From Catajapyx aquilonaris (Eukaryota): a DNA stretch of 64,000 bases. The translations under genes were made by a program, and so were the position numbers. The notes under the pieces are model-generated. The model was given only the letters and a program-made list of their open reading frames with translations, was not told the origin of the DNA and ran no database searches. This document shows, in pieces, positions 8,440-62,996 of this stretch (position 1 is the first letter of the stretch; every line of letters starts with the position of its first letter). The stretch is taken from assembly GCA_000934665.2 (NCBI GenBank), contig KZ538029.1, positions 1-64,000 on the forward strand, given 5' to 3'.

Positions 8440-8618
8440 AAGGGTTTTTATCAATAAATCATGCCCCCCCCNACAAATCGTCCCGCCATCTGTCGTCAGG
8501 GGTGCCAACCCGCGCAGTGTCGCCATCTATTGGGCGGATCCAATCCATTCCGAGTCCGCGGGGTGCGGCGGAGTTTGCTCGGGCTGCTGAACCTCTTCTA
8601 AGGGCGAATCAGGTGAGT
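8440..8618. promoter_or_regulatory. Probable bidirectional promoter for CCDC191 and PRDM10, including a non-coding first exon of PRDM10 (donor CAG|gtgagt at 8612/8613)
   Basis: GC-rich stretch just upstream of the CCDC191 ATG, two CGCCATCT motifs, and a strong + strand splice donor. Confidence 0.5.
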
Positions 8619-12506: not shown

Positions 12507-15500
12507 ATGGACGGTGGGTCCGACGCCCCGGGGTCCCCCAATGTGGGGCCCTCGTTTGGGGCAGGAGACCCCTCCTCTCCAGAGGGGGACCCGCCTGGTC
12601 ATGATGAAGTGGAGGACCTGGATTGGGCCACCAGCACTTCGCAAATAGATGAGCAGGTCAAATCAATACTCCCAGAGGTAGTTACATTGCTGTGAAGTCT
12701 TTTAAAATACCGTGTGCAAGCAGAAATGATCACTTCACAGCTACGAGCGACTTTGTTCTGATCCTCCCTCTTGTTCGATGCAGGAGTATGAAGATGGGGC
12801 TGCTGGCGGCTACCCAGATAACCCTTTCTCCCCACAACCGTCCACATCCATGGACGAATATGAGACTCATGTCAGTCCCTTGGACCCAAACATGAGCTCG
12901 GCTGCCCGTTACTCTCCCGTCTACCCCACCCTGAATCAGCACCTCCATCCCAGCTCCCTATCCCAGAGCAGCTCCACGGCTGCTGCCACCACAACCACAA
13001 CCACCAATCCCACCCCTGCTCCAGCACCTCTCCCAACAGTCAGGCCTCCTCCACAGTGCATCAAAGGGGATGTGAGAACCCCGGTGTCGGACAACTACAT
13101 GGTGTCGTCATCCACACATCTGGATTCAGTGGCTCCGCTGCGGCAAGGAGTGTACCATACTACCAGAGGGGACATGCTGGACTCCACAGTTGACTCCACC
13201 AGTGGAGGAATTATTGATGACGCAGCTGTTGGATCCTCACAAGTGCAGCCTCTCAGGGTTAGCAGACATTATTAATTTTGTGTTGTGAGCGTTGAATTCC
13301 CATCCATCATCACCTTAATGGCATGTCGTAATGATTCATTTCAACAGCCCTTGCAGGTTTGTGACCTCGAACCGTCAGGACTGATCTCAACTACAGGAGT
13401 CTCAGGAGATGAGGAAGATGAGGTGGATGGCCTGGTGGACTCGATACCCAGTCCTCCTGAAGCTGATCCCAGCCATCACCACACCCTGCGGAGGAACGAT
13501 GTCACTATGAGCTCCATTCTTTCAGAGGATGAGGATGATGAAGATGAAGGAAATAGAGTCATGTACACCTCAGCGCTTGGAGGCCACGACCGCAGCAATG
13601 TGTGTAATGGGCATGCAGGCAGTGGACAGGCAGAATCTCAGAGTATGTCTGAGTAGTACTAATAATCATCTACTCATTTTCTATGATTAAGGAGATTTAA
13701 TTTAAATGTGAATTTAAAAAGAGGAAGTTGCTATTGCTACATATTATATAGAGGCTTTTTCACTGGTTTCCTACAGAAGATATTGATGTGACTGAGGTGT
13801 TTGTGGACTCCCAGCGAGTCGCTGATGACTCGGAGTTAATGGATGACGATTACGAGGAGAGTGTGCAGCAATCTGCCCGAAACTCGATAGCAGCTCACCA
13901 GCTACTGGCTCCGAGTCAAGTTGCAAAGATTCTCAGTCACCTAGAGGTGAGTACAATATCTTAATCAAATTATCAAATTAATTAACTCTGTTTTTTGAAC
14001 ATTGCAGGCTACCCAAGGACTAAGTCTTCAGGCTTTAGCACCCTCAGTGGTATCTGCAGCTTCCAGAGGTGGGCTTGCTGGTGGCAGCTCCGATGCGATA
14101 TTGGTTCCCATGCAGGCTCCCACCTCAAGGGAGGCCTTGCAGCAAGTGGACTCCGGCAACGGGGCTCTGCTGCTCACACAGCAGCTGGGAGAATATGGCA
14201 TCGTTGCACAGGTCAATGGGCATGTGCAGCTCAATGGACAAGGTGAGGTTCTCTCCATTTTCATCATAGCTGTCTACTCCAAGACTGCAGTGGAAGTAAG
14301 GGGAAGGTTCCATGAAAACTTGCGTACTTGGAGGAGACAGTTAATAATTATTGCACTTGAGAACAGTCGACTGAAAGTTGTACGGTCAGATATTCCACTG
14401 ACACTATTTTGTATCCAATAGTTGACGATCGCATGGATGCGGAAGAGGTGAAGAACATGTCGTCTCCAGAGGAGTTGTTGGATAGCCATTCTGGCGGGGC
14501 TGTCACATCATCGGAGCTCCAGGAAGTCTTTGATGACGCCATTACCATTGAAGAGAACCTCTCAGGAGATTCCCTGGAAAGAGCCCATCTTATCAACGAG
14601 AGAGTGTTGTGTGAGAGCAGAAGGCTGCGTCGGAGCAACAGGAACAGCATCCCGGTTGTCAACAACACGAGGCCTGCTCCCAGAGAGGACGATGCTGTGG
14701 CAGTCAGCTCCAAGGACTTTTGTGAGTGATGCTTGAGCTCATACCTTACTGTCTCTCTCTTTCTCTCTGGAGTACAGCAATACATGTACTGTCCTCTCTT
14801 TTATCAACTCGTCGCGTAGCCAACATCTGGGGCTTTGGAAAAACCAGTAAGATATAAGTTTGTCCGTCATGTGTGGTCTTTTTTGTAGCTCATGCAAGAT
14901 TGAGACAGTCGAGTGTGGTCATGATTTGATGCCAGTTGCGGCTAATGTGACAGAATTTGTGATGGCTCAAGCATTAAGCACGCTGAATTTGTTTGTAATG
15001 GGCCGGTTATAGCAATACGTGATGAGCTTCCAGAGTTCTATTTGGAATAACCATAACACGTAATAACGTTGCAGTTTTAATAATACTGATCACTGATTGA
15101 CAATGTGTTATTGACAAAAGCACAATTAAATTCTGATGATTCAAAATGGTTACTTTACAGTGACAAAATTTTATACATTTTTTTTCGTGAAGTTTTGTTT
15201 GTTGTTGTAACATTCAGATGCGATGAGGAATAACATCTGACATTGCGGGCATCAGGGAACCGGACTGTTCTGTTGGATTGGGACTTTATTTAATTGGCAC
15301 TTATTGGATGAATTTAATTTACTCCGTAGCTGAACAAATGTGATACACTTTTGTCATAATTCAAAAACACCTGTAGTTTGATAAATAATTGTAGGTAATA
15401 AAGTTCATTTTTTAAAAAAAGAAACGAGTGACTGACAGGATTGTGCCAGTTAGAATAACATGAGTTTTCCAGTGCAGTTGACCAGAAGTTTCGTCAGAAA

Positions 15501-18500
15501 GGTCTCAAGGTTTTATCAGATAAACCCCCGCTCGAGTGGTTATTATTTGCGATTCTGGTCAGCTGCCCTGTGCATGACGGAGGAGAGCTTAGCGCACTCT
15601 AAACTTAGCCAGGTGGCACTGCAGGCAATTAATGATCATTAGGTGGTTCTCCCGTAGGGTGTGACGAATGTGGATCATTCTACAACTCCGAGTGTCCTCA
15701 GCACAAAGTACAAGCCATTGTGGACAAGCCAGTACCCTCCAGAGCCTGGGCCTCCTTGCCTGCTACGTATCTGTCCATTGCAAAGGTCCCAGGAACCTCT
15801 GGTACGGAATAGAACGCCTTTACTCTGGATCACAGGTTCTAACACGTGTTGTCCATGCAGAGTATGGTGTCTTTGCAAAGAAAACAATCCCAAAGCGCAC
15901 CCAGTTTGGGCCAGTGGAAGGCGTCCTGGTGAAGCCTGAGCATTGGGAGGACGACAGGCTGGCCCTGTTAGTCGAGATGGAAACAGGCGTCTATTACCAG
16001 ATGGACATTACTGATGAGAGTGAGTTTCATTTTGGAATCTGAGAGAGGGAATTATTAATCCTCGTTTCGCTTAACCCATGTTTACAGATTCTTCAAATTG
16101 GATGCGCTTTGTGCGACCAGCAGATTGCTTTCATGATCAAAACCTGGTGCTGAGCCAGCAGGGCACCTCTTTGTATTTCACAAGCACACGTGTTGTGTGC
16201 CCCAGGCAAGAGCTGAGGATTGGCTACAGCACTGCTTATGCCCAGAGGAGGTGCCTGCCAGTCCTGCAGCCCACCGAGGAGGACAGAAGGGCCATGGAGG
16301 AACAGGAAAATACCTGGCCGTGCTTTGAGTGTCATCAGCGTTTTCCCTCTTCTGAGGAGCTGCAGAAGCATCTCAATGAGCATGACAAAGAAAAGGCGAG
16401 CTGAATTGTCTAGCCACTGCTCAGTGCATGTTCGTAACAAGACTTTTTCCACATTACCAGGGCGATGGCGAAGCTGTACTGAAATCACAAATAAAACGAT
16501 CGAAGCCCCATGTGAAGAAACGCTCACTGACACACCATCACTTGATGGTCCTTAGGAAAAGTGGCAATGTTTCTGATAATTCAGATGGAGTGACATACAA
16601 TGGGGATTACAAGGGAAGGTCACATCGCTTAGTCAAGAAAATAAAGGTTCGTATAAAATGTCTTGGAATTACTGCAGGCTTGCTTTTTGCAGCTGCGAAA
16701 TTATGATTGTTAAATAACTTATTGAATGACCATGGGCGACTTATTTCTAGGACCATCATGAGCCAGGATTGGTTAAGCACTCTGCTTTACATAGTGGTCT
16801 CATCAATGGCGACAAGTCAAGGTAAAAAAATTTCTATTGGTGATATAGAGATTTTCTACACGTGGCATTGCAATTCGTAATGCCACAGATCCGCAGGTAC
16901 TATTGACGGTATTTTTCAAAAATTTTGTGGTTCCAGGCACTTCCGTCGCCATCGTCTGAACAAAGAGAGCTTGACTTACAAAGCGTTGCTGAAGAAAAAG
17001 GAAGATAGGTAAGAAAGTCGGCTTCTATTTTGATGTAGAACATGTTATCTTACTTCAAAATCCGACCTTCCTTTTTATTGAACAGCAGCTCTGAAGAAGA
17101 TTGGCAGTGTCCCCACTGCAACCTTGCTTTCGAACTCCCTGCACTGCTCAGCCTCCACATCCTCAGCCATTCAGCCATCGTGGATGGGGACATCCTCACA
17201 GCAAAAATCAACTCCATTGGACCCAAGAGGGAGTGTCCTCTTTGCCGTATGGTCAGTGGCATCTGTTTATTTTATCCATTGCAAGTGAATAGGTGTGTGA
17301 GTCGATCTGACAGAAAAACTCAATTTCACAGGAGTTTGAGTCGAAGCAGGAATTGTCCCAGCATGTCACGAAGCACGGGCGTGTTGGAGCCAAGCGGCTT
17401 AGGGGAGTGGTCAATCCGGCCAAACCTTTCAAGTGTGATCTCTGCTACAAGTCATTTGCGACTGACGAAAGACTTGAGGTACTTTAATATTGTGCGGTAC
17501 TTGCTTGGAGACATGTGACAGGAAATATAATTGGTTTTTTTTTTTTGCAGCGACACATGTTAGTCCACGGTGCAGAAGACTCAAAGCCACTGCAGTGTGA
17601 CATATGTTACAAGCGCTTCCTGAACAACTCAGCCCTTGCATGCCACATTAAGATACATACAGGTACATGTCCACCCGGAAGAAATCGAACCAACTTCTTG
17701 TCGAAATTCTACATACAATTTACTGGCATTTCAGATGAGCGGAAGAACTTTGAGTGTCCCATCTGCAGGGATGCCTTCGAGCAGGTGCTGGCTCTAAAGG
17801 AGCATGTGCACGTCCACGCCAGGAATGGCTTGTTCACATGTCCGCATTGTGGAAAGGTTTGTCCCTCACTGATTCTTAGCTAAGCTGTGTGCATCATCCC
17901 CCAGTGTTTTCAGGACAATGTGTACGTACCAGTGCTATTGCAAATTTTTACAGAGATTAGGATTACAGGGGCCTTCCATCTTCTGCAGATTTGTCGCCTG
18001 AGAAGCAGGGCAAGGTTGTTATATGTGCTTGAATGGACAATTTATCATTATTTAATTTTTTTAGTGGACTTCTGACAGTTTACGTAAACTTTAAAATGCG
18101 ATGGCTGAGCATCAACAATAATGGGTTTTGCCATTCCATGCGTAATATCTTCCAATTTGTAGACAAAGTGCAGTTATTTAGAAATCGGAAGGATCGAAAG
18201 CCTTTCTAATTATTATTATTGAAAGCAAAATATTTTGCCCGTTTCTTTCTCTGGCGACTCTTCTTTTCTTGTCGTCCACATCAGTAATTAACAGAATGTT
18301 ATGAAACGATGTCTTTAACCTGTCTCATTATCCCATCCCAATCCGAATCCATGCACTCTTCTTGACAGCCTCTCATTTCCACCACGTAGGTGTTTGAGGA
18401 GTATAATCAGATCCGAAAGCATATACGAGCTTTCCACAGTGAGAGGAGGTTCCCGTGTAGTCAGTGCGACAAGGTTTTTCCACGCCCAGACAAACTCAGG

Positions 18501-21500
18501 CTCCACATGCTCAGGTTAGAAAAAAAATCAAATAGCGATTGACAATGGAGGAACGTATTTATCCCCCAAAAACTTCCTCTTGCCTCGTGTTGTTTCTTTT
18601 TTATTTTTGTGTACCAAGGCGTAAGACATGGCTCGTTATTTTGGGCAGTGTTTTTTTGTGGAGGGAGGGGAATTTTGTTGCAGTGATGTTGGATGCAATG
18701 TTGTTTTATGGCCGTGATTACTGGATTCTGCACTGCTTCTCATTTCAGTTTAAGCTATCCCATATTTTCCCTGAGGCATACTTCACAATGATGGTAAAGT
18801 CTAGACTGATTGCAGCTGTCTCAATTGTGAGATTATTAATTCATGAAGGGAACATACCCAATTGCGTCATTTAGCGGTTGTGAACTATGCTTAATCCGAA
18901 CCCCTGGAATATTGTTTTGTAGGGAATGAAATCATCTCCTCACACTTCCAAATGTGCACAGATATATCAGACGTGATATTGTTGCAGGATATATTGTACA
19001 AAGGCTGGACTTTTTTGTAAATTTTCTCAGCATCTGATCAGTCGTAAGCAGTGGAGCAACTCGAATTTTTGGATCTGAGACACTCCTTGATCTGTACGCA
19101 ATCTTGTCCCGACCTAAACCAACCTGAATCGTGTCACTTTTCAACAATTCTCTTTTGATTTTGAGCTACTGGCGGTTTTATTTTTATTGTTTTCTCCGCT
19201 GCCTCCCCCTTTCCCACTAGGTGTTTGGTGCGTACAATCTGATCCGCAAGCACATTCGAGCGTTCCACAGTGTGAGGAGGTTCACTTGCTCTGTGTGCAG
19301 CAAGACTTTTCCTGCTCAGGACAAGCTTAGAATGCACATGCTCAGGTAACGTAAGTCAAAGAAAGGGGGTGTCTTAGGGGGGCTTCCACATATTTTTTTT
19401 CTCTCTCTCAGTTTCCACTTCATTTTTTAAAAAACCTGTCTGTGTCATGCTTTCGTCTCTTCTGGTGTCAGTATCCCTGGTATGCCTCGTAACGTGTGTC
19501 TACCATTTTGCGTATTATGCATGGCTTTACTGACTTTAGCAGTGGCGCTTTCTGCTTTTCTCTGCTGCTGTTGCCTCTGGACCTCTTGGTGTTACTGCCT
19601 AATAGTCCTTTCTCACTAGAAGTTGTAGGTCAAGTCTGTCAGATAATCAAGCTCGTATGTCAGTCTAGTACCTAGGAGGAGCTTGTAAATTATGTTATTG
19701 TTCATATGTTAACCGCTGTTGGTATCCACAAATTACTGACACTATTTCTGAACAAAAATAATGTGAATGGTTGATGTTCGTGATCTCGTATTAGCTTAGG
19801 ATCAATTAATTGTTGTGTCAGCCTCGTCTGGAGATGATTCTTACACAAATCTCTTCCGACGATCTCAAAAGATTTCCTTCCATCCAACTATCATTTTCTG
19901 AGACTTATAAATGATAGAGTGTCGTATTTGCTACGATGCAATCTTATGTAGAGCTGTATATAGCTTTAGTGTGTTTAGATTAATCAGTCATGCGCTGGTT
20001 TTAAATTGTCTTGTCCTTAAAAATACATTATTGTAGTGACTACAACAGATGCTTTTTACATTCATCAATAGAGCGATACCAGGGGGTTTTCTCATTTTTA
20101 TTAGAATAACTGATTAGGCCTAGAGCATAATCTGACAGGCTTGAGGAACTTTCTTTTGCTCTTCCACTCTTTCCTTCACACTTTTAAATCATCAGTTTGC
20201 ATGAGACTCTATGTCCCGTGGAACTTTCCAGGCACTCGGATCACCGCGAGTTTCTTTGCGCCAATTGTGGGAAACAGTTCAAGCGCAAGGACAAGCTAAA
20301 GGAGCACATGCGTCGAATGCATTCTGCTGAGCGGGAGGCCCGCTTGGCGCTCAAGCCCACCAAGGTTCCCAGCCATAAGAAGTTTGTGCCAAAGGTATGT
20401 ACATTCGTAATTGCAGTGGCATTTTCCTTCATGGCCAGTTGTCATTGAATTGTTTGATTGTTTGTTAACTGATGCATTTTTCTCTGTACGTTATCCACAG
20501 GTCTCACCAACAGACTATCATCGCTTTATATACAAGTGCCACTCATGTCTTCTGGGCTTCAAGCGACGGGGAATGCTTGTGAACCACCTAGCAAAACGTC
20601 ACCCTGATATCAGCCCTAATTCGGTCCCGGAGCTCAATCTCCCTATTCTCAAAACCACACGTAATTACTACTGCCAGTATTGTGAGAAGGTAAGCTGTCA
20701 ACAGTTGTTGTTGTACAGGCAGTGGCAAGTTGTACAATTTGTGATTTCCATCTTCAGACGTACAAGAGCAGCTCCAAGCGTAAGGCTCACATCCTGAAGA
20801 ATCATCCTGGGGCCGAGCTACCCATGAGCAACCGTCGAAAAGTACGGCCCTACCTTTTCTCTTACATTATGTTCCATTGTAATATTACTTAACATTAATT
20901 TGTTGTGTTCAAGGGCGGTGTTCCTGAGATCCCGGGCGTACCAAACCCAACGTTCTCTCAGACTGTTGGCAGTGTCACCACGCATCCTCACAGCTGTCCG
21001 TGGTGCCACAAGCAGTATGCCTCCAAGGCTAAGCTCCTGCAACATCAGCGCAAGAAGCATGTGGAATTCCTCCCCGAGGCACAACAAGTGAGTGCATCTT
21101 CTCTTTTATCCGCTTTCTCCATGACACCGACCCAGTGCGCATGCTTCAATTTTCACCGGGCCGCATTGTTTTGTTGATGGTTATTACCCAGATTCTTCGC
21201 ACTCAGCGCACCGGATCGCAAGGAAGTCCGACTCAGGACCAGCTGCTGGAAGGCTCAGCCGTGATCAAGTTCCTGGACGACGGAGACGAGGCACAGATCG
21301 TGCACATCCAAGAAGTGGACGGCATGGGAGTGCCGCAAGTCAACGTGTTGCAAGGTGCGACAACTTTACGATTGCACACCCGCTCACACCTGACTCGTAT
21401 AAACTTTTCAAATGCAGATTACCAGTTGGCCACTGCTCAGGACTTAGCTATGGAATACGCCAATGGGATTATCACTTTGAAGCGCCCACTCAAGGTGAGA

Positions 21501-21966
21501 CACATTTCCTCCAATATTATCTGAATGTATGAATTTAAATGTCGATATGTATCTTTCATTATTTTAGGGGTCATCTTTGGAGCAGGCAGGCCTGCCAATC
21601 GCAGCTGACCTGCTGTCACAAGCTATGTCAGACCTGGGCCAGCCTCTCGGTGACTATCGTCCTCAGCTGCCCTCTCCCCCATCTTCTCCATCTTGCTCCT
21701 CCGCATCTGCTTCTCCTTCATCCGCCACTTCGTCCCTCTCCTGCGCTTCCGTTGCAGGCCCTCCCATCCCATCCTCTACTACTGCAGCCCCTACATCTGA
21801 CCACTTCTTCCTGCTGACCACCACGGCTCCGGCCTCTTCACCGGTCACCACCACCTCAGCCTCTTCCACCCCTCAGCTCATCTTTCCGACTCCCACCACC
21901 GAGTCTCTCCCCCAGCCCCACCCGCAGCTGTGGGCCGCGACGTACTCCAACTACACAGCTCGCTGA
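12507..21966 (+). CDS. PRDM10: PR/SET domain zinc-finger protein PRDM10; about 22 coding exons, with one mutually exclusive exon pair
   Basis: PR knuckle (WCDEC..CPQH), PR/SET domain ([32 protein letters not shown]) and a C2H2 array with PRDM10-typical fingers ([89 protein letters not shown]). Confidence 0.95.
18390..18514 (+). CDS. PRDM10: PRDM10 alternative zinc-finger exon A ([41 protein letters not shown])
   Basis: tag|...|gttag boundaries, 125 nt, phase 0 to 2, matching the flanking exons (end 17856, start 20232). Confidence 0.93.
19221..19345 (+). CDS. PRDM10: PRDM10 alternative zinc-finger exon B ([41 protein letters not shown])
   Basis: Polypyrimidine tract, tag|...|gtaac boundaries, 125 nt, same phases as exon A, 30/41 aa identical to exon A. 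Confidence 0.88.
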
Positions 21967-28302: not shown

Positions 28303-29031
28303 TTAAAATTTGGAACTTTGCAGATTGTATTTTCAGAACGTCAATAATTTCGCATGTAAATGTCTTTCGCATAAGAGAAATGACATATTCATCCAACACC
28401 TTCAGTAGGTACTACTAAATCGAATGGCAGCATAATGACGAGTAAGGTATTTTAAATTTAAGCGTACAGTTGTGTTTCATTCAAAATGTTATTTTGTCCG
28501 TTGTAATTACAGAGAAATAAGGCTGTAACTGCATACTTGGATAACAATAACAATTTTAAAAACCTTACCTAAAGCATAACATTCGAGAACAAAATTCAAA
28601 AATTGTAAATCAACAGTATGTTACCCACAGATAAATGGTGTTTAAAGTGATCGTTACAGTTGCGAAAGTGCGACTTTTCATTGCTTTGGCCCAAAACTTG
28701 ATTTTTCTTTTTTAAATGCTTGTATTGTTGGTGTCAGATATGAAATGAGAGACTTCAGCCATTAACTTCTTGAAAAATCTATTGTGCGTTTCAATCTCTC
28801 TGGGGAGCACTTGAAGACCCTTTGCAGACCACAGTTTGGGATCCGCTGGTCTTAATCTATCACATCGAAGGGCACAATGGATGTGAGTAGGACAGGGATG
28901 ATAACGGGACTTATCGCTTGTTTACATAAAATGCGATCACCACTTTTTTTTTGCTGCACCTGTTGCACCACAAGGTGTAGTATGTTTGATTGGTCAGTTT
29001 GCGTTTCAGTTGGAATGAGTCGCGTGACACA

Positions 29032-32000
29032 ATGGAGTCGGACGAACCCCTCAGCAGCCAGCCACAGCTTCAGGAGTACTGGGAGCAGGCGACCAGGAGG
29101 GATTCAACGACTTACCAGGTGCGGACGAAGCCAACCGTATAATTGAACACACTTTGTGATATGTGATTTGCATTTCTAGGAGAAGGGAGAATGGCTGGAT
29201 TGCTTCCTGATTAATTTTTTACTCGAATTGCACATGTCTGGTCGTCCACCAGAGGAAATTCTCTCGTTCAGGTAAAATTTACTGGCTTGTTATTTGAATT
29301 GTGTTTAAAACTGTGTCTTCATGAGCAGCTGTACCTCGGCTGTGATTGGCGTGTTGGGACAGCAGCTCTTAGAGGATGTCCGTGAGATTACGGAGCAGCT
29401 GGCCCAGCAGCCTGGAATTAGCAGCAACAACCCGCCAGTCCTCAGGGACTATTTCTTTCGTGGTCGGGGCTGGCGGATACTGGCCGCCCTGAAGCACCTC
29501 CGCCTGCAGAGGTCTGCCTATTCTCGAAAGGTAGTTTCAACCTGCGATGCAATCCGGAGCGTGATGTTAACCATTTTGTTATTAACAGGTGGCTCTCCTG
29601 CTGATATCACTTTACCATGTGTATGGTGAGCAATTAGGCGACTCCGAGAGCCAGTGTGATGAAGTTCCTTCTGCAGCCGAGTTTGCCCACGTCGCATCCC
29701 TTCCAACGCCAGAGAGCATAGCTTTAGCCGTGGCTGGAACTCCAAAGTCGACACCCAGCATTCCCAGACCACCGCAGCACCACCCGCGTGTGCGTTTCAC
29801 TAGTCAGTCCGTACCAACGAGCGACTCGGACGCATCCAGTGTGGAAGAAATGGATCGTCACGTGTCACGAAACTTGCTCCTAAAGGCAAACCCGGCTCCG
29901 GACAACTTTGCCTACTTCAGCGGGATAGTCAAGAGTGATGGGGAGGAAGTGGAACCTAGTCAGGAGATTGCAACTGCCAGAATTCCACCCTCGCTCAAAG
30001 GTTTGGATATGATTGTATACTCTCTTTTTTGGTTTTATCAAAGAGGCGTGTCTTCCAATAGGTGCTGCGATGGAGGTGGCTCAGTGCGGCCTGACCCGAC
30101 CGGAACTGTGCAGCCTCATGACGGATATACTCATGGGAGCCTGCTCGGAGGAGGCCACTTCCAATTCAGATAACACCTCAGGCGGCTTCTTGGGGGTCGC
30201 TCCGCAAGTGGTGGAGTTTGCGTCGCAGGTAGCCGTTGGTCATCCGGAGCTTATGGGACTCCTTCTGGTTGGTTCGTTTGCTCTTTTACGGCATCCGGAT
30301 TGCATTGCCACGTTGAACAAGACTGGTGTGGTGGGACTGATGGTGCAGGCGGTGCAGAAGCCAGACGAAGGAGGGATGCTTAAAGGGCTGTGGGCGTTTG
30401 CGGGGACGTTGCTCAAGTCAAGAACTTCATGGCAGTGCCCCAGGGACCTGATGGAGATCCTGAGACCTGTGTTTGCTACTCCGCATGTTACATGTGAGTT
30501 GGTTCGGTAGGCGTAACTGGCGTAACTTATAAAGTGTGTATGTTCCACCAGATCTGATGAACACCTGGCCAACGATGGATCCAAACGAATCAAAGTCTAT
30601 ACTCGGCTGGGTGTCCCATTGTGTCCAGTCACTAAAGGACATCCGTGGTGAAGCTCTCCATATGCTCGTGTGCCATAAATCACGCCATAAACGATGCGGA
30701 TGGACCCACCTGAGGCACCATCACGGCCAGGAGGATGCCTCCCCCTGCGCGGTTGGTCGCCTCACCCAGCTTCCACTGGCCATGGCCGCAACCGTCCAAG
30801 GGGATGTGCTTCTGGCGGCCTTGCAAACTCTCCAGCAGTGCAGCCTGTGCTGCTGTCTGCATCCAGATTCGGTGGTGCCACAGCTCCTGGATGTTGTGAG
30901 GAGGGAAGGAGCGTCCAGGGCAGTCCAGCTGTCTCTCCGGGTGCTGGAGAAATGCGTATATGGGAGAGGGGAAGAGGAAAAAGGATGCCAAGCGTGTGCG
31001 GACGGGAGGACTGGAAGGCGGGATGGTGTTAGCCACCTCAGCAGACAGGTAAGGCGGCTAGAGTGATGCCACAGAATACGACACTATCAAACGTGTGTGT
31101 TCCAGGCAAGTTGTGAAGTCGACAGCGCACTGTACACCAGCGATTCATCCGCTGCGGAGCTTCTCGATGGCCGACATTCCAAGTGGCGATGTGTGGCTGC
31201 ATACCGCCTACTGCTTGAAGACGACGAGTGTCCTTCCCACGGCACCATCATGCACCATCTTTTGGACGTCCTGGGTGCATGCAGAGAAGGCCTTCGTATT
31301 GAGATCTACTCTAGGGTGATCCAGCCTCTCTTTTTGACCTGTAAGAAGCGGTACCTCTCGTCGCTCTCGCCGACTGTGTCCACGGACTTGGACAAGGACA
31401 GTGTTGCCTGTTGTCTTGCCGCATTTGCGTTCCTGTTTGGCGAAGGGTGGTTTGCGGCTCATTTTTCTGATCACGGCGGCTTAGCACACTTGGTGGACCT
31501 GGTTGGGAAGGCGGAATTTTCGGTGGCTGTGTGTGAGGTGCTGGAAGCTATGGTGGGAGCCGAGGCGATAGGAAAAAGGAGCGCAGAGCAGGAGAACCAG
31601 AGCAGCGGAAGCAGCAGCAACGGCGACGGTGGGACGCCAGTGGCGTTACTGCTGTACGACTTGCTGCTGAGGAGCACGGACAAGTCTCAGGCCATCCTCC
31701 AGGCTTACCTGCATCAGGAGAAAGTGAGTTCGGCTGCCGTAATCGTAACAGGGTACATTACAAGTTCACTTACCGCAGGCACGTCAGTTCCTGGATTACG
31801 CCAGCCAGGTTCAGGTAAAGGAACGCATGGCATCCTCTGGCAACGAGAGTGGCGTGGAATCCACCTCATCCGCAATAGGCTCCAACTACGAATCGTCATA
31901 TGACGTGCTTTTGGGCAACGATGATCCGCCTATAAGCAAGTTGGACACTGTTAACAACAACAACAACAGCCAGAGTGAGGAAGAGGCGCTAGACAACAGC

Positions 32001-35000
32001 CAGTCCAGCGTCCAGCACGACAATGCGGATGTGTGCAGCCAAGGAAAGCTTCTCGAGGGGTTTGCGTCTCAGCTGGAGGAACAGATGGTGCTGCTTGGAG
32101 CCCTCTGGAGGACCTCCAGCCGAATGGTGTCGTTCTGCCCACCGTTCAGGACCCTGGTGCAGAGCAGGGGGTTGGGACCACAGGCCAGACAGGTCCTGTG
32201 CCTCTCGCTCAAAGTGCTGCTGATGCACAGCCAAAGTGAGTCTGTTAGCTACTGATCTACCGGCAGCTAGTACCAACATTTGCGCTCTTTCCGCAGGCTT
32301 AGCTCCAATGGGCCTGAAGCGATCGCTTCAAGACCAGCTCCTAAAGCTTTGCGAGCCGCTGTTGGCCGTAACTCTGATGATTCCAGAATCGACAAATGAC
32401 TTTTCCGAGGCTGTCAACCAACTGATGGAAAGCCTTGCCTTGATACTCCAAGGTCTGTGTCCGTTCATGGGGTTGGACGTACGCCATTTGGGAGATGTTT
32501 TTCTGAAGAGTTGTGTGCTGACTCAGAGCGGCCAAGTGCTGATTCAACATCGTGCAATGCCGCAGGTTAGATAATTTCAATTGTATGGATTTGAAGAGTA
32601 CTCACATTGTTATGAACAGGTTCCGTTGCTGATGTCGGACGTAACCTCGGACCTATCAAGCGACTGTAATGACTTCAGTTCGGAGGAGCACGATCCGTAC
32701 CTGACAGCAGAGGATGGTTACGATGCAGACGTTGAAATGATGGAACTCAGCAAAGACTCCACTCTGCCCGCAGCTTTGGAGGAGACTGATCCGCAATCTT
32801 CGGACTCCACGCCGCCCATCACCTTCCCGCAGGCATGCTCCACCTTGGTCCACATTCTGGTTCGTTACAACGAAACATTCTATGACACCATGGAGAAGAG
32901 GAGCGACGAGAACGTTTCATCGGACGCAAACGGATGGGAAGGGACTGAAGAAGAGGAGCACTTGCTGGCTCTCGTCAGCAACTTCCAGCGACTGGTCGTG
33001 TTGTGCAAGCACAGCCATTACAACTGCTCCCTTTTGTCCAGGGAAAGAGTGGTTGAGGCTCTGCTGGAAGGGTTTCCAGTCTTCTTCCATTCCTCCAATC
33101 CCAGATTCGCAGGTTGGCCATCTTCAGGATCTTCCTGGAGTGCAATTTTTACATTGCCGCTTTTTGTTGCAGATATTCAGAGATGCTTGCTTGAGCTGGT
33201 GACGCTGTTGACTCGGTGCAGCATCACTTCGAAGGAGCTGTCGCTCTACCTAGGGTTTTTCAAGGAGGATAATCCGCCTTTGGTATGCTGCTTTTCGTTC
33301 ATGTTTCGTGGCGGTCGTTAACCAGATTTTGGGCGTTTCAGACACAACTGTTGCTTCCACTGGTGAGTCTGGCCCGCTGGTGGCGCCAGCAGCCGTCCCA
33401 GGCCCTGGTCTTCCCAACCTCCCCGCTTCCGCCAGAGGAGTACCACCACAAGTGCAACCATCCTCGCACCCTCTCCGCCTCCCTTCCGATGGGCTGGAGC
33501 TGGGACTGGACTGATGACATGGCCATGGCCAGCTCAAAGGAGGGGAAGAAAGGCGTGCCCTGGTCTCACGGACGCTGTTCCGAGGCGGTGGAGAGAACGT
33601 CCAGGGGGATGAGGCAAAAGGGAGTCCCCTGCACGTGGGCCTTGGCCGCACTAGCTCTTCCGTTAGCGCCCAATCTGGCTTGGTCTCCTCGGAATCCTCA
33701 AGGGTTTTCCATCTCGCTATGGGCCCACGCTCTGAAGCACGAGGATCGGAAGTGTGACCTGGGCGGTGCCTCCACCGAGGGAGCGTCTCCCAACTCGAGA
33801 CGCACATATCCTGCGTCAGATTCGGTTCAAACTGGAATGGGTTCATCCGCAAGCCTACCCATTTCCCTGGATGACTGTCTCCATTTTGTGTCAATTGGTT
33901 GTGAGAATTTGATGCTGGAAGTGTGGTTCCATCAGGTGTTGGGTACGTACGTTTTGCACTGTTTGTCCAGGCGAGTGTTATTGGTCGATTAAACGTTGCA
34001 GAGGTGTTCGTTATAAGACTGACACGTTTGGAGGCTGCGAAGGTGAAAGTTCTGTCTCAGACGTTTATGGACTTCGGGACCACTCCCATCGGTTGGCATC
34101 ATTTCGCATTCAACTGCAAGGAAACAACGATGCAGAAGAAGAAAGCCACGTTCGAGGTAATGTAGCTTAATTATTTGGTGACGAGGATTCTTGTGCCGTA
34201 TCCTAATGTGATGGTTAGTATTCGTGACAGGAACTGTTGGATTTGTCTGTTTTAGATGACCATGATAGTGGACGGATGGATGGAGACCCATGCCACTTTG
34301 GAGTTCCCATGGGTATCTTCAAGCAAGAAGACCTCGATGACGCAGACCATCCTTCTAGGCCACACCGTCCTCGATTTTGGAAACGACTGCTCCTCAACTT
34401 CTGACAAATCTGCCGACTCCCCATCCCGTCCTTCCCAAACGACTTATTCCTGGCAGCTCGGCAACGTCTTGGTCTTCAAGGAGCACGTTTTCAACCGCAG
34501 ACGAGCCCTGTTTCTCCGCAGCTACGGACCAGACTGCTGCAACCTAACGCACTGCGACGCGGAAACCCTGATGCCGAACTTTGCATCTGTCGCATCCCAG
34601 GAGACGACTGTGTTCCTGGATGGCAACTTGGACCGAGAGGAGACCAACCTGAAAGCACTGCAAGACGCCTTGTTACTGGTGTACTCACCAGGCCAACCGG
34701 AAGTCATACTGTACTATCCGCATGTCTGCATCAGTACGGCAGGTAATTGGCCGTTATTGCGATGCGATCCTTGCGTTAATTGCGGTTTCGTTGAGCAGGC
34801 GTGCTGAGCGGCTTTCTGTCGGGAGGCCCTTCCTTCCGAGTAGTGAACATGGACCAGCGTTCCAGCCAGCATCAGCCCCTTCCTTTGCCTGCCTTGTGGC
34901 TGTCCAGATGCTCCATCAGGAGGAACGGTGGGCTTCCAACTGCTCTCAGTCCCCTCGGAGGAATCTCAGTCTTTTTGTTTCTCTTCGCCAGAGTAAATGG

Positions 35001-51970: not shown

Positions 51971-53399
51971 ATGGACCAGGTGAAGGTGAGTGAGTCGATG
52001 TTCCTTGCTACTTTTATTTCTACAGAAATCACATCATTGTTGCAAAAGTAGTTCACACATGAAGAATCATTGTACCAACTGACCCCTATAGTTATTACGA
52101 CCACATGTCGAAATTGCACATTTTGATTTACGGGGTTAGATAAATATTACACCATTATCAAAATATGCGCATGTCTTAAGGATGATGTAAGTGGATGGGT
52201 TATTGTGTCGCAAATAGCTCTGCAGTATAGTGATGTTGTCGCAGGGCGTACCGTACGCACTAGGCCGTGGCCTGATGGACAGCCTGAGGGGGGTGGTCGC
52301 CATCCTGTTCCTGGACCAGCAGATAAGGCAGCGGCAGACCTCACCTAGTCACAAGGTTAAGGAAACCTCGCCGTTCCTCACCAGGCATCGGCCAGCCCAA
52401 CACAGAGAAGCAGTGCCAAAGAAGAATGAGCAGTACGTACGGAGGGATCCCCACGTTTTCAATAAAACTTAACGACAAGCGTGTTTCAGGGACGGCCGTG
52501 TGCTGCCTCGGGTGCTCCAGTGCTGCCTGCTCAACGGAGGCATATTTGGGCTCAGCCTTTTCATGTTCGACTACATCCTGATACCCTGGCTGAGGCATGG
52601 GATGTACTACGTGTTTGGGAGTTCAGCTGGGACCAGGGCCATCTGGAGCTGGACCAAGCCTTGTCTCATGTGGGTGTTCCAGGCTCTCTGGGTGCTGCCT
52701 GTCTTTCTGCTCAACAGGCTCATCAGCAGCATCTGGTACCAGGTCAGCAGCTTGCATTTACCATTGTCGATTGGGTTCGTGTACTAACCGCGTTTGACCC
52801 GGCAGGACATTGCTGATGCAGCATACCGTCACTCGCGCGGACGGCCCCTGACACTCCCGTCAGTCAGTAAGACCGTAGCGGACATGCTGTTCAGCATAGT
52901 GGTCCAGATGCTGTTTCTAGGCCAGACGTACCTCGTGGCCTACCTGCCCATCGCTCCTGTGGCGGAAGCTGCCTCGTTGGTGCACATGGCCATGCTCTAC
53001 TCTGTGTATGCCTTTGAGTACAAGTGGTTCAACATGGGCTGGGAGCTTCATAAGAGGCTCACGTACATTGAGAACAACTGGCCGTACTTTCTGGCCTTTG
53101 GGGCACCACTGGCCGTGATAACCAGGCTCACCACCACCTTCTTCTGGAGTGGGACTGTCTTCTCCATACTCTTTCCCCTCCTGATTATCAGCGGGAACGA
53201 AGCTGAGCCCGTCACAGGAACTTGGTAAGTTTAACGCCGGAGAGTACCAAACAACAATTGTGACCGACTCTTTCGCAGTGACTACCACCTGAAGCTGTTC
53301 TCCGGAGTCATTGCTCTCTCCAACATCATCTTTGACATATTCTGCAAATCGTGGTCTTCCCGTCCAGAATCCGCCACTTCGCAGAGGGCTGCCAGATAG
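51971..53399 (+). CDS. EI24: Etoposide-induced protein 2.4 (EI24/PIG8), ER membrane autophagy protein; 5 exons
   Basis: Motifs RVLQCCLLNGG, WVLPVFLL..SSIWYQDIADAAY, LYSVYAFEYKWFNMGWELHKRLTYIENNWPYFLAFG and FSILFPLLIISGNEA. The first coding exon is MDQVK at 51971-51985. Confidence 0.95.
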
Positions 53400-53675: not shown

Positions 53676-54905
53676 TCACCCACTCAACAGGTCCCTCAAT
53701 CCGGTGTCCTCCACATCCAGCTCCACAACCTCCTCTTTGACCGCGTACGACAGGTGCGATTTTGAGAAGGCAATGTTGCGCTGCAGGGCTTCGAAGCTTA
53801 ATGAGGCATCATTCTCCCTCGCATCCACCGTGGCCCCTCCAGGCGTGCGGCACACTTCAAACTTCTGCCACCGGTACGAAGAACACTTCCTGGCCCCTTG
53901 ACAGCTCTGGATTAAGTTCTGCACCGTTGGGTGCGACAACCCAAAGAATTCTGCTCCCCTCCCGGCGATGTTAACCACCTCGATGCCAACAACCCTGTTC
54001 ATGCGCTCCAGTAATTCAGCATGGCACTGCGATGGTGTTGTACCCCTGATTGGAAGACTTGGCTCTCCGTCTGCTGCGATCTCAAAGCGAGGTGCATCCC
54101 CAGCGTCCATGACAGTGCAGGTGTACATACACTGCTGCTCAGGGTCGCTGAGGCTGGCATACAGTCTGGTTGAGCAGAACCCTGCCGGGAATATAAGGTC
54201 CTGGGTGTTGTAGGCAGGACGGTCGGACACTACTTCTCCGAGGCTATGGATGGTGAGGCCGCCTAGGACAATAGGGAACACTGGCCGGCCTGTTGAGTCC
54301 AGCGCAATGGGCTGCACCTGCCGCTTTGCCTTCCCAGCCGCCCGTCTTGCTCGGGGCGCCCGTGTCTCCGAGCCGGTTTCCGCATTGCGCCTTTTGGCTG
54401 CCGGCTTCTTCGCAGGTGGCGTTTCTCTGCTGCTTGGCAATGCTGGCATTGGATGTGGGCCATCTGGATCTGAAATGCATCTATGTGTAATTAAGCTGAC
54501 TCGCACCAATTAAATGATGAGCGCACCAGCAGCAGCCTGGTAACTGAGCAACTTCTTGAGCAGAAACCGTCGTTCTTCCTTGGCCAACAGCAGCTTCTCC
54601 TGCGTCTGGGCCACCTGGTCACACAAACTTGCATTCTCCTAGAACGACAAACAGTCAGCAGGCCTCTCCCATGCGTTTGGCAACGTCGTACTCACAAAGA
54701 CAAGCTGCTTGATGTCCCTCCGCATCTTCATGTACTTCTGCTTGTACCTCGCAATGTTTGCTGCTGACTCGGACTTTCCTTTGCTGTTTCCTTTCTTCCC
54801 AACTTGTCCTCCGATCCTCTGGCCACCCGAGGCCCTCAGCAGTTCTTCCATCATGGCCACATGGCTGGCCAGGTGGGCCTTCGAGTCCACCTCCTCTTCC
54901 ATCAT
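53676..54905 (-). CDS. TBRG1: Transforming growth factor beta regulator 1 (TBRG1/NIAM), FYRN/FYRC domains; 3 exons
   Basis: KYMKMRRDIKQLVFENASLCDQV coiled coil, then QPIALDSTGRPVFPIVLGGLTIHSLGE..FPAGFCSTRLY (FYRN) and GAEFFGLSHPTVQNLIQSC (FYRC). Confidence 0.93.
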
Positions 54906-55732: not shown

Positions 55733-56663
55733 ATGGACGGGGACACGGATGACCTCAATTTCACTTCTTCCGCCACACGCCGTGTCAGGGTATATCTATT
55801 TACGCATGGAAATATTCTTATCACATTTATCTGCGTTTGCAAGTATCACTGTACCAAAAACTGTGTGTCCAATTACGCTGGCTACATGTTTCGCAATTGA
55901 TGGGAGTCTTTACAAATGTTGTTTCTATGTTCAGGGACTTACACCTCGCCGTGGGAGGCGGTCCGGCCCCATCAGAAAGGAGCTGTCTGGAGAGATGATG
56001 TCTCTGGACATCCCGGACAGTCCATCTGGAATTAGCGCACTCCCGTTCGGCGAGGAGACTGGAGCCAAGCCACCACCGCTCAGAGGAAGGAGGTCTGGCG
56101 GATGGGCCGATGAACTGAAAAGCGCCAAGGGGTTAGCGATTACACACATTAATAACGAAACATTTGGACCTGTATGTAATCACGATACCTTTTCAGGAGA
56201 CGGGAAGACTCAGCGTTGCTAGAGCAGTGAGTATCCGCATAAGTATTAACGGTTAGATTTTCATGTCCCATGTCCGTTAAGGGAGAGGTTGAAGTCGGCA
56301 AGGGTTGACAGTCGTTGGAATTACGACTCTGATGATGACGGTCCGGCCATTCCCAACTTGGATGAGGTGCAGGAAGAAGATCTGGCTATGCAAGTCGCCG
56401 CAGCTCCCAGCCAGTCCACGACACGGGTGGCCACGTATAAGGAGCTGGACAAGGACCTGATGAAGCACGCAGCCTTTGCCACCATGGATGATATCGACCT
56501 GAGGGTACTGACTGGCTGTATGTCCACCGAGGCTGACCTGAAGGAACCGGACATACCCTGGAAGTGGGATGTCATATTCACCGAGGTCACTTCCGAGATA
56601 GGTGCCAGGGATGACGAGGACAGGGTCAAGGAAGGAGGAGAGAACACATCACCGCCACTGTAG
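55733..56663 (+). CDS. IFT43: Intraflagellar transport protein 43 (IFT-A); exons 55733-55789, 55935-56131, 56197-56226, 56282-56663
   Basis: Motifs PPP..RRSGGWADE, IPNLDEVQEEDLAMQVAAAPS, VATYKELDKDL, IDLRVL and EPDIPWKWDVIFTEVTSEI. Confidence 0.92.

Positions 56664-62960: not shown

Positions 62961-62996
<36 letters not shown>
62961..62996. repeat. (AG)n microsatellite abutting an assembly gap (N run 62997-63018)
   Basis: Directly visible. Confidence 0.98.

What the first reader, a model, noticed from the sequence alone, without database searches (positions are those of the whole stretch)
18390..19345. PRDM10 carries tandem duplicated, mutually exclusive zinc-finger exons that swap DNA-recognition residues
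Seen in sequence: two homologous 125-nt exons with identical phases (0 to 2) lie between the constitutive exons ending at 17856 and starting at 20232. Including both gives a frameshift and a TGA within about 7 codons, and skipping both also frameshifts to a stop, so only A-or-B mRNAs are intact. The exons are 30/41 aa identical, keep all Cys/His ligands and show many synonymous differences, while their flanking introns are dissimilar. That pattern suggests an old duplication under purifying selection. Using standard C2H2 helix numbering, the first finger changes E>A at -1 and Q>L at +3, and the second finger changes R>A at -1, P>Q at +1 and L>M at +6. Exon A retains the [10 protein letters not shown] helix I recall from vertebrate PRDM10. 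Inference: this is a splicing switch giving two PRDM10 isoforms with different DNA specificity. I am not aware of it being described for PRDM10.
Basis: partly seen in the sequence, partly recalled or inferred. Interest (0 to 1): 0.9.

Follow-up and report, generated by a model that had tools for sequence, protein, structure and literature searches.

The report
Swappable zinc-finger exons in insect PRDM10
A PRDM10-type gene regulator in this arthropod has two alternative copies of one zinc-finger exon, an ancient insect arrangement that probably lets one gene make two proteins reading different DNA.

Summary
Exons A (18390-18514) and B (19221-19345) are both 125 nt with AG/GT sites. They match at 93/125 nt and 30/41 aa. 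All Cys/His ligands are kept. Including both or neither shifts the frame into a stop.

The gene belongs to the PRDM10/15 subfamily.

The mutually exclusive reading is supported by relatives. RefSeq isoform pairs of two mayflies and a damselfly have equal length and differ only inside this 41-residue slot, one A-type and one B-type. A tree puts the window's exon B in a strongly supported clade with the B-type exons of winged insects (100/98). A local, independent duplication is disfavoured (AU p 0.022). So the duplication predates winged insects.

A is the ancestral form, found in deuterostomes, chelicerates and myriapods. Most neopteran annotations examined show only B.

Type-specific residues sit at DNA-reading helix positions. 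A difference in DNA specificity is inferred, not shown.

No RNA data could be obtained for this organism.

Six literature searches found no description. The isoforms are already in public annotation of relatives, so this is a new member of a known kind.

The parts
12507..21963 (+). PRDM10/15-type gene (approximate extent: first ATG of the N-terminal exon to the stop after ...YTAR)
   Evidence: ORF list. tblastn of the Ephemera danica protein P0001 covers 12814-21090 in 12 pieces. The ends were read by likeness to the ends of P0001 and are not otherwise tested.
15665..16401 (+). PR/SET domain exons (two open stretches, 15665-16039 and 16075-16401) and the first C2H2 finger
   Evidence: Pfam PF21549, E 1e-08 and 6e-16. 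The best solved relative is 3ihx, the PRDM10 PR domain, at E 8.5e-10.
17735..17856 (+). Constitutive upstream exon. It ends in phase 0 with ...CPHCGK, the two Cys of the split finger.
   Evidence: Sequence, translation.
18390..18514 (+). Exon A, the ancestral type. It encodes the recognition helix and both His of one finger and all but the last His of the next (helix ...[11 protein letters not shown]).
   Evidence: zf-C2H2 E 3.8e-07. 78-90% identical to chelicerate, myriapod and mayfly PRDM10 over the slot.
18515..19220 (+). Intron between A and B, 706 nt, GT...AG
   Evidence: It is far longer than the few tens of nucleotides at which steric exclusion between neighbouring exons is described (figure recalled).
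19221..19345 (+). Exon B, the derived insect type. Same length and phase as A (helix ...[11 protein letters not shown]).
   Evidence: zf-C2H2_6 E 7.7e-07. It lies in the 100/98 B-type clade.
20232..20394 (+). Constitutive downstream exon. Its first base completes the Arg codon, then HSDHREF... and the next finger.
   Evidence: 84% identical to P0001.
17999..18012 (+). Arm of a 14-nt inverted repeat (93% complementary) whose partner is 18729-18742. Pairing would loop out exon A. This is an untested lead only.
   Evidence: pair I5. One search found four 14-mers with at most 1 mismatch in 17857-20231, against a shuffle mean of 0.62; 6 of 100 shuffles reached four.
18729..18742 (+). Partner arm of the inverted repeat, in the A-B intron

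Best explanation
The window holds an arthropod (hexapod-like) gene of the PRDM10/15 subfamily. One internal zinc-finger exon exists in two tandem copies that are used one at a time.

What the exons encode: each 125-nt exon supplies the DNA-reading helix and both His of one C2H2 finger, and almost all of the next finger. These correspond to fingers 8 and 9 of 13 in the mayfly orthologue, inside a run of six regularly spaced fingers.

How exclusivity works: 125 is not a multiple of three. An mRNA carrying both exons or neither is frame-shifted into an early stop and is expected to be removed by nonsense-mediated decay. Only A-only and B-only mRNAs encode the full protein. The choice between A and B is presumably made by splicing regulators, possibly helped by intron pairing.

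Origin: A is the ancestral exon. B arose by exon duplication before the radiation of winged insects and has been kept under purifying selection.

Likely consequence: B replaces the invariant Arg at helix position -1 of the second finger and the Gln at +3 of the first finger with small or hydrophobic residues. The two isoforms therefore most likely recognise different DNA sequences.

Shown: the anatomy, the frame logic, the orthology of B, the A/B isoform pairs annotated in relatives, and the type-specific conserved residues.

Inferred: use of both exons in this organism, removal by decay, and different DNA specificity.
For: Anatomy and frame.

Gene identity:
- PR domain and C2H2 fingers.
- The best solved relative is the PRDM10 PR domain.
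- 20 of 20 candidates for exon A are arthropod PRDM10-like proteins.

Exon B is not a local oddity:
- The Ephemera danica model P0001 carries an A-like stretch (1063-1103) directly followed by a B-like stretch (1104-1139).
- Of the 120 best proteins, 61 carry A-type, 57 B-type, 1 neither, and 1 lacks the slot. This regex reads only the 41 residues directly before the following constant exon, so P0001 counts once, as B-type.
- A-type is found in deuterostomes, Priapulus, chelicerates, myriapods, Ischnura isoform X2 and Timema. The mayflies' A-type forms were seen.
- B-type is found in Odonata, Ephemeroptera, Orthoptera, Blattodea, Phasmatodea, Hemiptera, Psocodea, Coleoptera, Hymenoptera and a sand fly.

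Mutually exclusive use in relatives. Each pair has identical length and differs only inside the slot:
- Neocloeon X2/X1: 20 differences, residues 627-664.
- Cloeon X2/X1: 19 differences, residues 626-663.
- Ischnura X2/X1: 16 differences, residues 740-776.

Orthology:
- win_B falls in a clade of 22 rows with all B-type exons, support 100/98.
- Forcing win_A and win_B together costs 15.7 lnL, AU p 0.022.

Selection:
- dN 0.21, dS 0.75-1.05, dN/dS 0.20-0.28.
- The flanks are unalignable.

Recognition positions, among 46 distinct A-type and 46 distinct B-type slots:
- Second finger, -1: R 46/46 in A; T 42 and S 4 in B.
- Second finger, +1: P 45/46 in A; L/Q/V and others in B.
- Second finger, +6: L 46/46 in A; M 39/46 in B.
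- First finger, +3: Q 39/46 in A; I/V/L 42/46 in B.

Background from papers:
- Mouse PRDM10 binds a specific motif through its central finger array (passages of PMC7368010).
- Frame-shift is a recognised way of enforcing exclusivity (passages of PMC5740500).
Against: - There is no transcript evidence for this organism. No RNA run was listed, so splicing of either exon here is unproven.
- The isoforms of relatives are computed RefSeq models, and I could not see their RNA support.
- In 8 of the 10 clusters read, only B-type members were listed: Hetaerina, Bacillus, Periplaneta, Cryptotermes, Schistocerca, Nilaparvata, Tribolium and Amphibalanus. Retention of both exons is therefore the exception in annotation, and one copy could be on its way out here too.
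- The tree rests on 41 columns. 21 of 38 inner branches are unresolved. win_A sits next to the B clade (83/86), which may reflect some exchange between the copies. I ran the AU test after seeing the tree.
- The window's exon B has Ala at -1 of the second finger, where the 46 other B-type slots have Thr or Ser.
- No species has data showing that these two fingers contact DNA.
Confidence: 0.75

Rival explanations
1. Only one of the two exons is still used in this organism. The other is a silent remnant that has not yet decayed, either A on its way to loss as in most Neoptera, or B unused.
For: Of the 59 cluster members covering the slot, 57 are B-type and only 2 are A-type. This shows that lineages do end up with one annotated exon. 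No RNA data were available here.
Against: - Both copies keep open frames, all ligands, AG/GT sites and pyrimidine tracts.
- dS between them is near saturation while dN is 0.21.
- A is 78-90% identical to chelicerate, myriapod and mayfly A-type slots, and B is 76% identical to the cockroach B-type slot. That would not survive long without selection, given that the introns are unalignable.
Confidence: 0.13
2. Both exons are used as a switch, but the isoforms do not differ in DNA sequence specificity. The swap instead changes affinity, a protein or RNA partner, or has little effect.
For: - No data show that these fingers touch DNA.
- Not every finger in a long array contacts bases (general knowledge of C2H2 arrays).
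- Positions +2 of the second finger (Asp) and +5/+6 of the first finger (Arg-Lys) are the same in A and B.
Against: - The type-specific, conserved changes fall on canonical base-contact positions: -1 and +6 of one finger, +2/+3 of the other.
- The fingers lie in a run of six with regular 28-30 residue spacing.
- In mouse the central array is the sequence-specific DNA-binding domain (passages of PMC7368010).
Confidence: 0.25
3. Exon B arose by a recent duplication within this organism's own lineage and only resembles the insect B-type by convergence.
For: win_A groups beside the B clade with 83/86 support. The window's B keeps A-like residues at slot positions 19-21 (RRF rather than RKH).
Against: - The B clade including win_B has 100/98 support.
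- A win_A+win_B clade is rejected, AU p 0.022.
- dS of 0.75-1.05 and unalignable flanks argue against a recent event.
Confidence: 0.03
4. A and B are both included through other splice sites, adding fingers, as in the Ephemera danica gene model.
For: P0001 reads A followed by 36 residues of B in one frame.
Against: - In the window, joint inclusion with the mapped sites gives TGA after 7 codons.
- The Ephemera arrangement cuts off the last His of one finger and the start of the next helix, and that model also reads through intron-like sequence just upstream. It looks like a prediction artefact.
- The RefSeq models of three other species show clean swaps.
Confidence: 0.03

Closest known systems
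FoxP / FoxP1 tandem-duplicated alternative exons in the forkhead domain (Santos et al. 2011, PMC3002244; abstract read)
   Same: A transcription factor whose DNA-binding domain is partly encoded by two tandem-duplicated exons used alternatively. The duplication is old. The isoforms differ in residues critical for DNA contacts. Some lineages or paralogues keep only one exon.
   Different: A forkhead fold rather than C2H2 fingers. The FoxP duplication is placed at the base of Bilateria, whereas the PRDM10 B exon was seen here only in insects and possibly a barnacle. The FoxP isoforms were verified by RT-PCR; here there is no RNA evidence for the organism.
Frame-enforced mutually exclusive exon pairs, as catalogued for human genes (Hatje et al. 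2017, PMC5740500; passages read)
   Same: Neighbouring homologous exons of equal length and phase. Length is not divisible by three, so joint inclusion or joint skipping shifts the frame and the transcript is expected to be degraded.
   Different: That catalogue is human. Its main text holds no 'PRDM' and no 'zinc finger'. Its supplements were not looked at.
RefSeq isoforms X1/X2 of 'PR domain zinc finger protein 10-like' in Neocloeon triangulifer, Cloeon dipterum and Ischnura elegans
   Same: The same gene, the same slot and the same A/B exon types.
   Different: These are computed models in a database, not a described finding. The window's organism is a different, unidentified arthropod whose protein was not found in the collection: the best identity over the exon A slot was 90%.
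Alternative zinc-finger modules of the insect BTB factors broad, fruitless and lola (recalled from general knowledge, not from any call)
   Same: One gene yields isoforms with different C2H2 finger pairs and different DNA targets.
   Different: As I recall, those use alternative 3'-terminal exons (lola also trans-splicing) carrying whole, unrelated finger pairs. They do not use an internal pair of homologous exons that swaps helices inside a fixed array.

Membership tests
Tandem-duplicated mutually exclusive exon (MXE) cluster | Adjacent exons that are homologous, with the same length and phase | tested here: met
   125 nt each, phase 0 to 2, 93/125 nt and 30/41 aa identical. Reciprocal tblastn E 8e-18.
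Tandem-duplicated mutually exclusive exon (MXE) cluster | Each exon has usable splice sites and an open frame | tested here: met
   AG acceptors with pyrimidine tracts and GT donors. Each donor matches 7 of 9 consensus positions by my hand count, as does the upstream constitutive donor.
Tandem-duplicated mutually exclusive exon (MXE) cluster | Mature mRNAs contain exactly one of the exons | tested here: inconclusive
   No RNA run was listed for this organism. In orthologues, RefSeq isoform pairs of three species differ only in the slot, but these are computed models.
Tandem-duplicated mutually exclusive exon (MXE) cluster | A mechanism that prevents joint inclusion or joint skipping | tested here: met
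   Both alternatives shift the frame into stops. Degradation of such mRNAs is inferred.
MXE clusters controlled by competing RNA pairing (docking site/selector type; Dscam, 14-3-3 xi and others; PMC4691838 seen in a search listing only) | Conserved complementary intron elements that pair so that one exon is selected | tested here: inconclusive
   One 14-nt pair brackets exon A (17999/18729). The count of such pairs is only marginally above shuffles: 4 observed against a mean of 0.62, with 6 of 100 shuffles reaching 4. No related genomic DNA was available to test conservation.
MXE pairs enforced by U2/U12 splice-site incompatibility | One intron of U12 type | tested here: not met
   The donors read GTTTGT, GTTAGA and GTAACG, and all acceptors are AG. 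None resembles the U12 donor consensus as I recall it.
MXE pairs enforced by steric hindrance | The intron between the two exons is too short to splice | tested here: not met
   The intron is 706 nt.
PRDM10/15 subfamily of PR-domain zinc-finger proteins | An N-terminal PR/SET domain followed by an array of C2H2 fingers | tested here: met
   PF21549 in two exon pieces. zf-C2H2 family matches were listed at E up to 0.01 in eight of the twelve stretches scanned; in several the zf-C2H2 score is below Pfam's own cut-off.
PRDM10/15 subfamily of PR-domain zinc-finger proteins | Closest relatives are PRDM10/15 rather than other PRDM subfamilies | tested here: met
   - The best solved PR domain is PRDM10, 3ihx.
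- Nearly all named proteins among the hits are called PRDM10 or PRDM10-like.
- Collinear matches to the Ephemera protein run from the N-terminus to the last finger.
- No subfamily tree was built.

The most novel reading that the evidence does not exclude
An exon duplication that predates winged insects, and possibly Pancrustacea, gave PRDM10/15 a second DNA-reading module. Early-branching lineages (mayflies, damselflies, this organism) still switch between the ancestral A and derived B modules. Most Neoptera then dropped A altogether. If so, the derived exon took over, and an essential, otherwise slowly evolving transcription factor changed its DNA recognition without gene duplication. This would be a datable, stepwise rewiring that can be tested by comparing A- and B-arrays.
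Probability: 0.4. Interest if true: 0.6.

Novelty: new member of a known kind. Interest (0 to 1): 0.45.

Why it matters
PRDM10 is an essential, sequence-specific transcription factor in mouse (PMC7368010, passages; PMC11850896, search listing only). Almost nothing is known about it outside vertebrates.

A conserved exon switch that exchanges the base-contacting residues of two central fingers would give one gene two target repertoires. Insects appear to record both states: A/B switching in mayflies, a damselfly and this organism, and B only in most other orders. That offers a natural experiment on how a transcription factor's specificity is replaced over time.

There is also a practical point for annotation. 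At least one published gene model (Ephemera danica) fuses the two exons, and clustering at 90% identity hides the isoforms.

Tried and rejected
1. RNA evidence: the look-up of sequencing runs on 17488-20400, kind rna, listed no RNA holder.
2. The search for homologous proteins with exon B, lengths 'longer', returned 'no candidate shares three words'. This was a false negative of the word index: P0001 and the B-type proteins found later do share several words with exon B.
3. The search of protein representatives with exon B gave 14,979 proteins at E up to 0.001. The best 150 listed were swamped by multi-finger proteins whose many weak stretches add up. Only P0169 (Diaphorina citri cluster) was relevant.
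4. No whole genome is held for the window, so paralogues and related genomic DNA could not be searched. No eukaryote genome collection was available for tblastn of the exons, so presence or absence of A or B is known from annotated proteins only.
5. Third exon copy: none in the window.
6. Intron pairing as the selector: marginal and untestable without relatives.
7. A direct repeat near the A acceptor (18359-18379 against 18726-18746, 81%) is not followed by any finger-like frame (read). I judged it chance.
8. Earlier notes of this scan: nothing for this place, these words or this sequence.
9. Literature: six searches found no description of alternative zinc-finger exons in PRDM10. The terms were PRDM10 + mutually exclusive; MXE/zinc finger/tandem exon duplication/arthropod; PRDM10 + insects + alternative splicing + zinc finger; PRDM10 + arthropod; PRDM10 motif terms; MXE + C2H2 + specificity. 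PMC9741552 holds no 'PRDM' and no 'zinc finger'. PMC4760075 holds no 'isoform' and a single 'exon', in the phrase 'exon shuffling'. Supplements of these papers were not looked at, and subscription journals are not in the library.


Full report
**Observation.**
- Exon A (18390-18514) and exon B (19221-19345) are each 125 nt. Each is preceded by a pyrimidine tract and AG and followed by GT.
- The upstream exon ends at 17856 after a complete codon (...CPHCGK). The downstream exon begins at 20232 with the base that completes an Arg codon (R-HSDHREF...).
- The two exons share 93/125 nt and 30/41 aa, with 11 synonymous and 11 non-synonymous codon differences. All Cys and His ligands are kept.
- Up+A+down and up+B+down are open.
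- Up+A+B+down meets TGA in the 8th codon after the junction. Up+down meets a stop 33 codons after the junction.
- tblastn of each exon against the whole window finds the other at E 8e-18 and no third copy.
- The 150-nt flanks are no more alike than shuffled sequence.

**What gene.**
- Two upstream open stretches match the PR domain model PF21549 (E 1e-08 and 6e-16). C2H2 matches are listed in eight of the twelve stretches scanned, including both A and B.
- The nearest solved PR domain is that of human PRDM10, 3ihx.
- A word-indexed search with exon A returned 20 of 20 candidates at E up to 0.001. Those with names are arthropod 'PR domain zinc finger protein 10(-like)' proteins or unnamed models from the same taxa.
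- The Ephemera danica protein aligns collinearly from the N-terminus to the last fingers.
- By the published family survey (passages of PMC4760075), non-vertebrates have a single Prdm10/15 gene, so 'PRDM10/15 subfamily' is the accurate name.
- The organism's own protein was not found in the collection.
- The best overall matches are Anabrus, Hetaerina and Ephemera, at about 60-65% identity over the conserved blocks. The source is an arthropod close to insects that I could not place further. No whole genome is held.

**Exon B in other species.**
- The Ephemera danica model P0001 contains an A-like stretch followed directly by a B-like stretch.
- Cluster look-ups then showed that Neocloeon triangulifer isoform X2 is A-type, while X1, X3 and X4 carry a B-type stretch at the same place.
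- Of the 79 proteins held at that point, 65 cover the slot by my count from the rows. Of these, 61 are A-type only, 3 are B-type only and 1 (P0001) has both. Every chelicerate and myriapod member is A-type.
- A search with the Neocloeon B isoform restricted to residues 596-705 gave 710 proteins of 715 candidates, with the best 120 listed.
- Classifying the 41 residues before the constant ...HSDHREF gives 61 A-type, 57 B-type, 1 neither (P0291, source not named) and 1 without the slot (P0241).
- A-type (ending ...RPDKL[K/R]LHML) is found in fishes, a mammal, amphioxus, echinoderms, Priapulus, chelicerates, myriapods, Ischnura X2 and Timema. The mayflies' A-type forms (P0001, P0003, Cloeon X2) were seen.
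- B-type (ending ...T[L/Q]DKLRMH[M/L]L) is found in dragonflies and damselflies, mayflies, crickets and locusts, cockroaches and a termite, a stick insect, planthoppers and psyllids, a louse, beetles, sawflies, wasps and the honey bee, and the sand fly Phlebotomus. A barnacle has a divergent B-like form.

**Mutual exclusivity in relatives.**
- A last cluster look-up was classified. 59 of the 69 listed members cover the slot. 57 are B-type and 2 are A-type: Ischnura elegans X2 and Cloeon dipterum X2.
- Direct comparison shows that each A/B isoform pair has identical length and differs only inside the slot:
  - Neocloeon X2/X1: 1034 aa, 20 differing positions, all within 627-664.
  - Cloeon X2/X1: 1027 aa, 19 differing positions within 626-663.
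  - Ischnura X2/X1: 1261 aa, 16 differing positions within 740-776.
- That is the signature of mutually exclusive exons.
- These are computed RefSeq models and I could not see their RNA support.
- In Hetaerina, Bacillus, Periplaneta, Cryptotermes, Schistocerca, Nilaparvata, Tribolium and Amphibalanus, only B-type members were listed. Absence from annotation is not absence from the genome.

**Age and orthology.**
- A maximum-likelihood tree of 42 slot sequences (41 columns) gives a clade of 22 rows with support 100/98. It holds every B-type exon, the window's exon B, the psyllid, the barnacle and two unnamed proteins.
- The window's exon A lies outside that clade with the A-types, nearest to Strigamia and Ephemera A.
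- The best tree that forces the window's A and B together is 15.7 log-likelihood units worse (AU p 0.022).
- The tree is short: 21 of 38 inner branches are unresolved. I ran the test after seeing the tree, so it is supporting rather than decisive evidence.
- The B-type is distributed across Ephemeroptera, Odonata, Polyneoptera, Hemiptera and Holometabola. Together these results place the duplication before the common ancestor of winged insects. That is several hundred million years by the usual dating, which I recall rather than take from a call.
- Within the window, dN is 0.21 and dS is 0.75-1.05, giving dN/dS of 0.20-0.28.
- Exon A is 78-90% identical to chelicerate, myriapod and mayfly A-type slots. 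Exon B is only 55-68% identical to the same A-type stretches. B is therefore the faster-evolving, derived copy.

**What the swap changes.**
- In the Neocloeon orthologue the slot covers the helix of finger 8 and nearly all of finger 9, out of 13. In Ischnura it is fingers 9 and 10 of 14. In both, these lie inside a run of six fingers spaced 28-30 residues apart.
- I use the standard rule that the seven residues before the first His are helix positions -1 to +6. The rule is established knowledge; the counting was done by hand.
- The window's A>B changes are:
  - First finger: E>A at -1 and Q>L at +3.
  - Second finger: R>A at -1, P>Q at +1 and L>M at +6.
- These differences are type-specific across species. 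Among 46 distinct A-type and 46 distinct B-type slots:

| Finger and helix position | A-type | B-type |
|---|---|---|
| Second finger, -1 | R 46/46 | T 42, S 4 |
| Second finger, +1 | P 45/46 | L 25, Q 10, V 6, others |
| Second finger, +6 | L 46/46 | M 39/46 |
| First finger, +3 | Q 39/46 | I, V or L 42/46 |
| First finger, +2 | N 20 or I 17 | S 38/46 |

- Arg at -1 is a classical guanine contact (textbook knowledge). Replacing it with Thr, Ser or Ala is expected to change the preferred base.
- Mouse PRDM10 binds a defined motif through its central finger array (passages of PMC7368010).
- A difference in DNA specificity is therefore the most likely consequence, but no call tests it.

**How exclusivity is achieved.**
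- The first two do not apply here. All sites are GT-AG of ordinary type and the A-B intron is 706 nt.
- The frame-shift mechanism applies fully.
- Which exon is chosen must depend on regulators not visible in the sequence.
- One 14-nt inverted repeat brackets exon A (17999-18012 with 18729-18742). Pairs of that quality are only marginally more frequent than in shuffles, and no relatives' DNA was available to test conservation.

**Comparison with what is known.**
- The closest described parallel is FoxP/FoxP1. There, tandem-duplicated exons inside the forkhead domain give isoforms that differ in DNA-contact residues, and some paralogues keep only one exon (abstract of PMC3002244).
- Structurally this is an ordinary two-member, frame-enforced MXE cluster.
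- Six literature searches found no description of it for PRDM10. The family survey does not mention isoforms.
- The A and B isoforms do exist as models in public annotation of three relatives.
- I therefore rate it a new member of a known kind, of moderate interest. The main interest is the apparent evolutionary replacement of the ancestral recognition module by the derived one in most insects.

**Limits.**
- There is no RNA evidence for this organism.
- There is no genomic DNA of relatives.
- Presence and absence come from annotated proteins only, and from the best 120 of 710 hits.
- The tree is short.
- Supplements of the papers cited were not looked at.

Noticed in passing
P0001 (Ephemera danica KAF4521285.1), residues 1050-1140: This gene model reads the A-like and 36 residues of the B-like exon in tandem and carries intron-like residues just before them. 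It probably fuses two mutually exclusive exons, which would be an annotation error worth flagging.
   Followed up: partly
P0169 and P0230 (Diaphorina citri cluster), around residues 278-360: The end of the slot is repeated identically, as a second copy of about 25 residues, in a 'LOW QUALITY PROTEIN' model. This looks like an assembly or model artefact. Another Diaphorina model (P0246) has a single copy.
   Followed up: partly
P0290 (Phlebotomus papatasi): A sand fly has a PRDM10-like protein with a B-type slot. The 2016 family survey states that Prdm10/15 was lost in the clade of Lepidoptera and Diptera (passage of PMC4760075). The loss may not cover all Diptera.
   Followed up: no
P0324 (Timema tahoe), slot at 706-746: This slot is A-type in the second finger (...RPDKLKLHML). 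In the first half it has residues otherwise typical of B (DGY, F-T-C). This may be exchange between the two exon copies. The other stick insect (Bacillus rossius) is annotated with B only.
   Followed up: no
window 52788-53225 (+), 53679-54509 (-), 56250-56660 (+): The neighbouring genes have EI24 (E 1.9e-10), FYRN+FYRC (4e-24 and 5.9e-17; TBRG1-like by my reading) and IFT43 (2.8e-34) domains. From memory, human EI24, TBRG1 and PRDM10 all lie on 11q24, which would make this an old conserved neighbourhood. Not tested.
   Followed up: no
window 29000-34200 (+): A run of long open stretches of a large multi-exon gene downstream of PRDM10. The four pieces scanned had no Pfam match.
   Followed up: partly
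window 8471-8472 and 62996-63018: Assembly gaps (runs of N). The second sits inside a GA/TC microsatellite.
   Followed up: no
The word-indexed protein search reported no candidate for the 41-residue exon B, although proteins sharing seven consecutive 5-residue words with it are in the collection. Blanks from very short queries in that tool should not be read as absence.
   Followed up: yes
window 19630-19647 and 20127-20144: An 18-nt inverted repeat (89% complementary) with both arms in the intron after exon B. It would loop out about 480 nt of that intron. Significance unknown.
   Followed up: no
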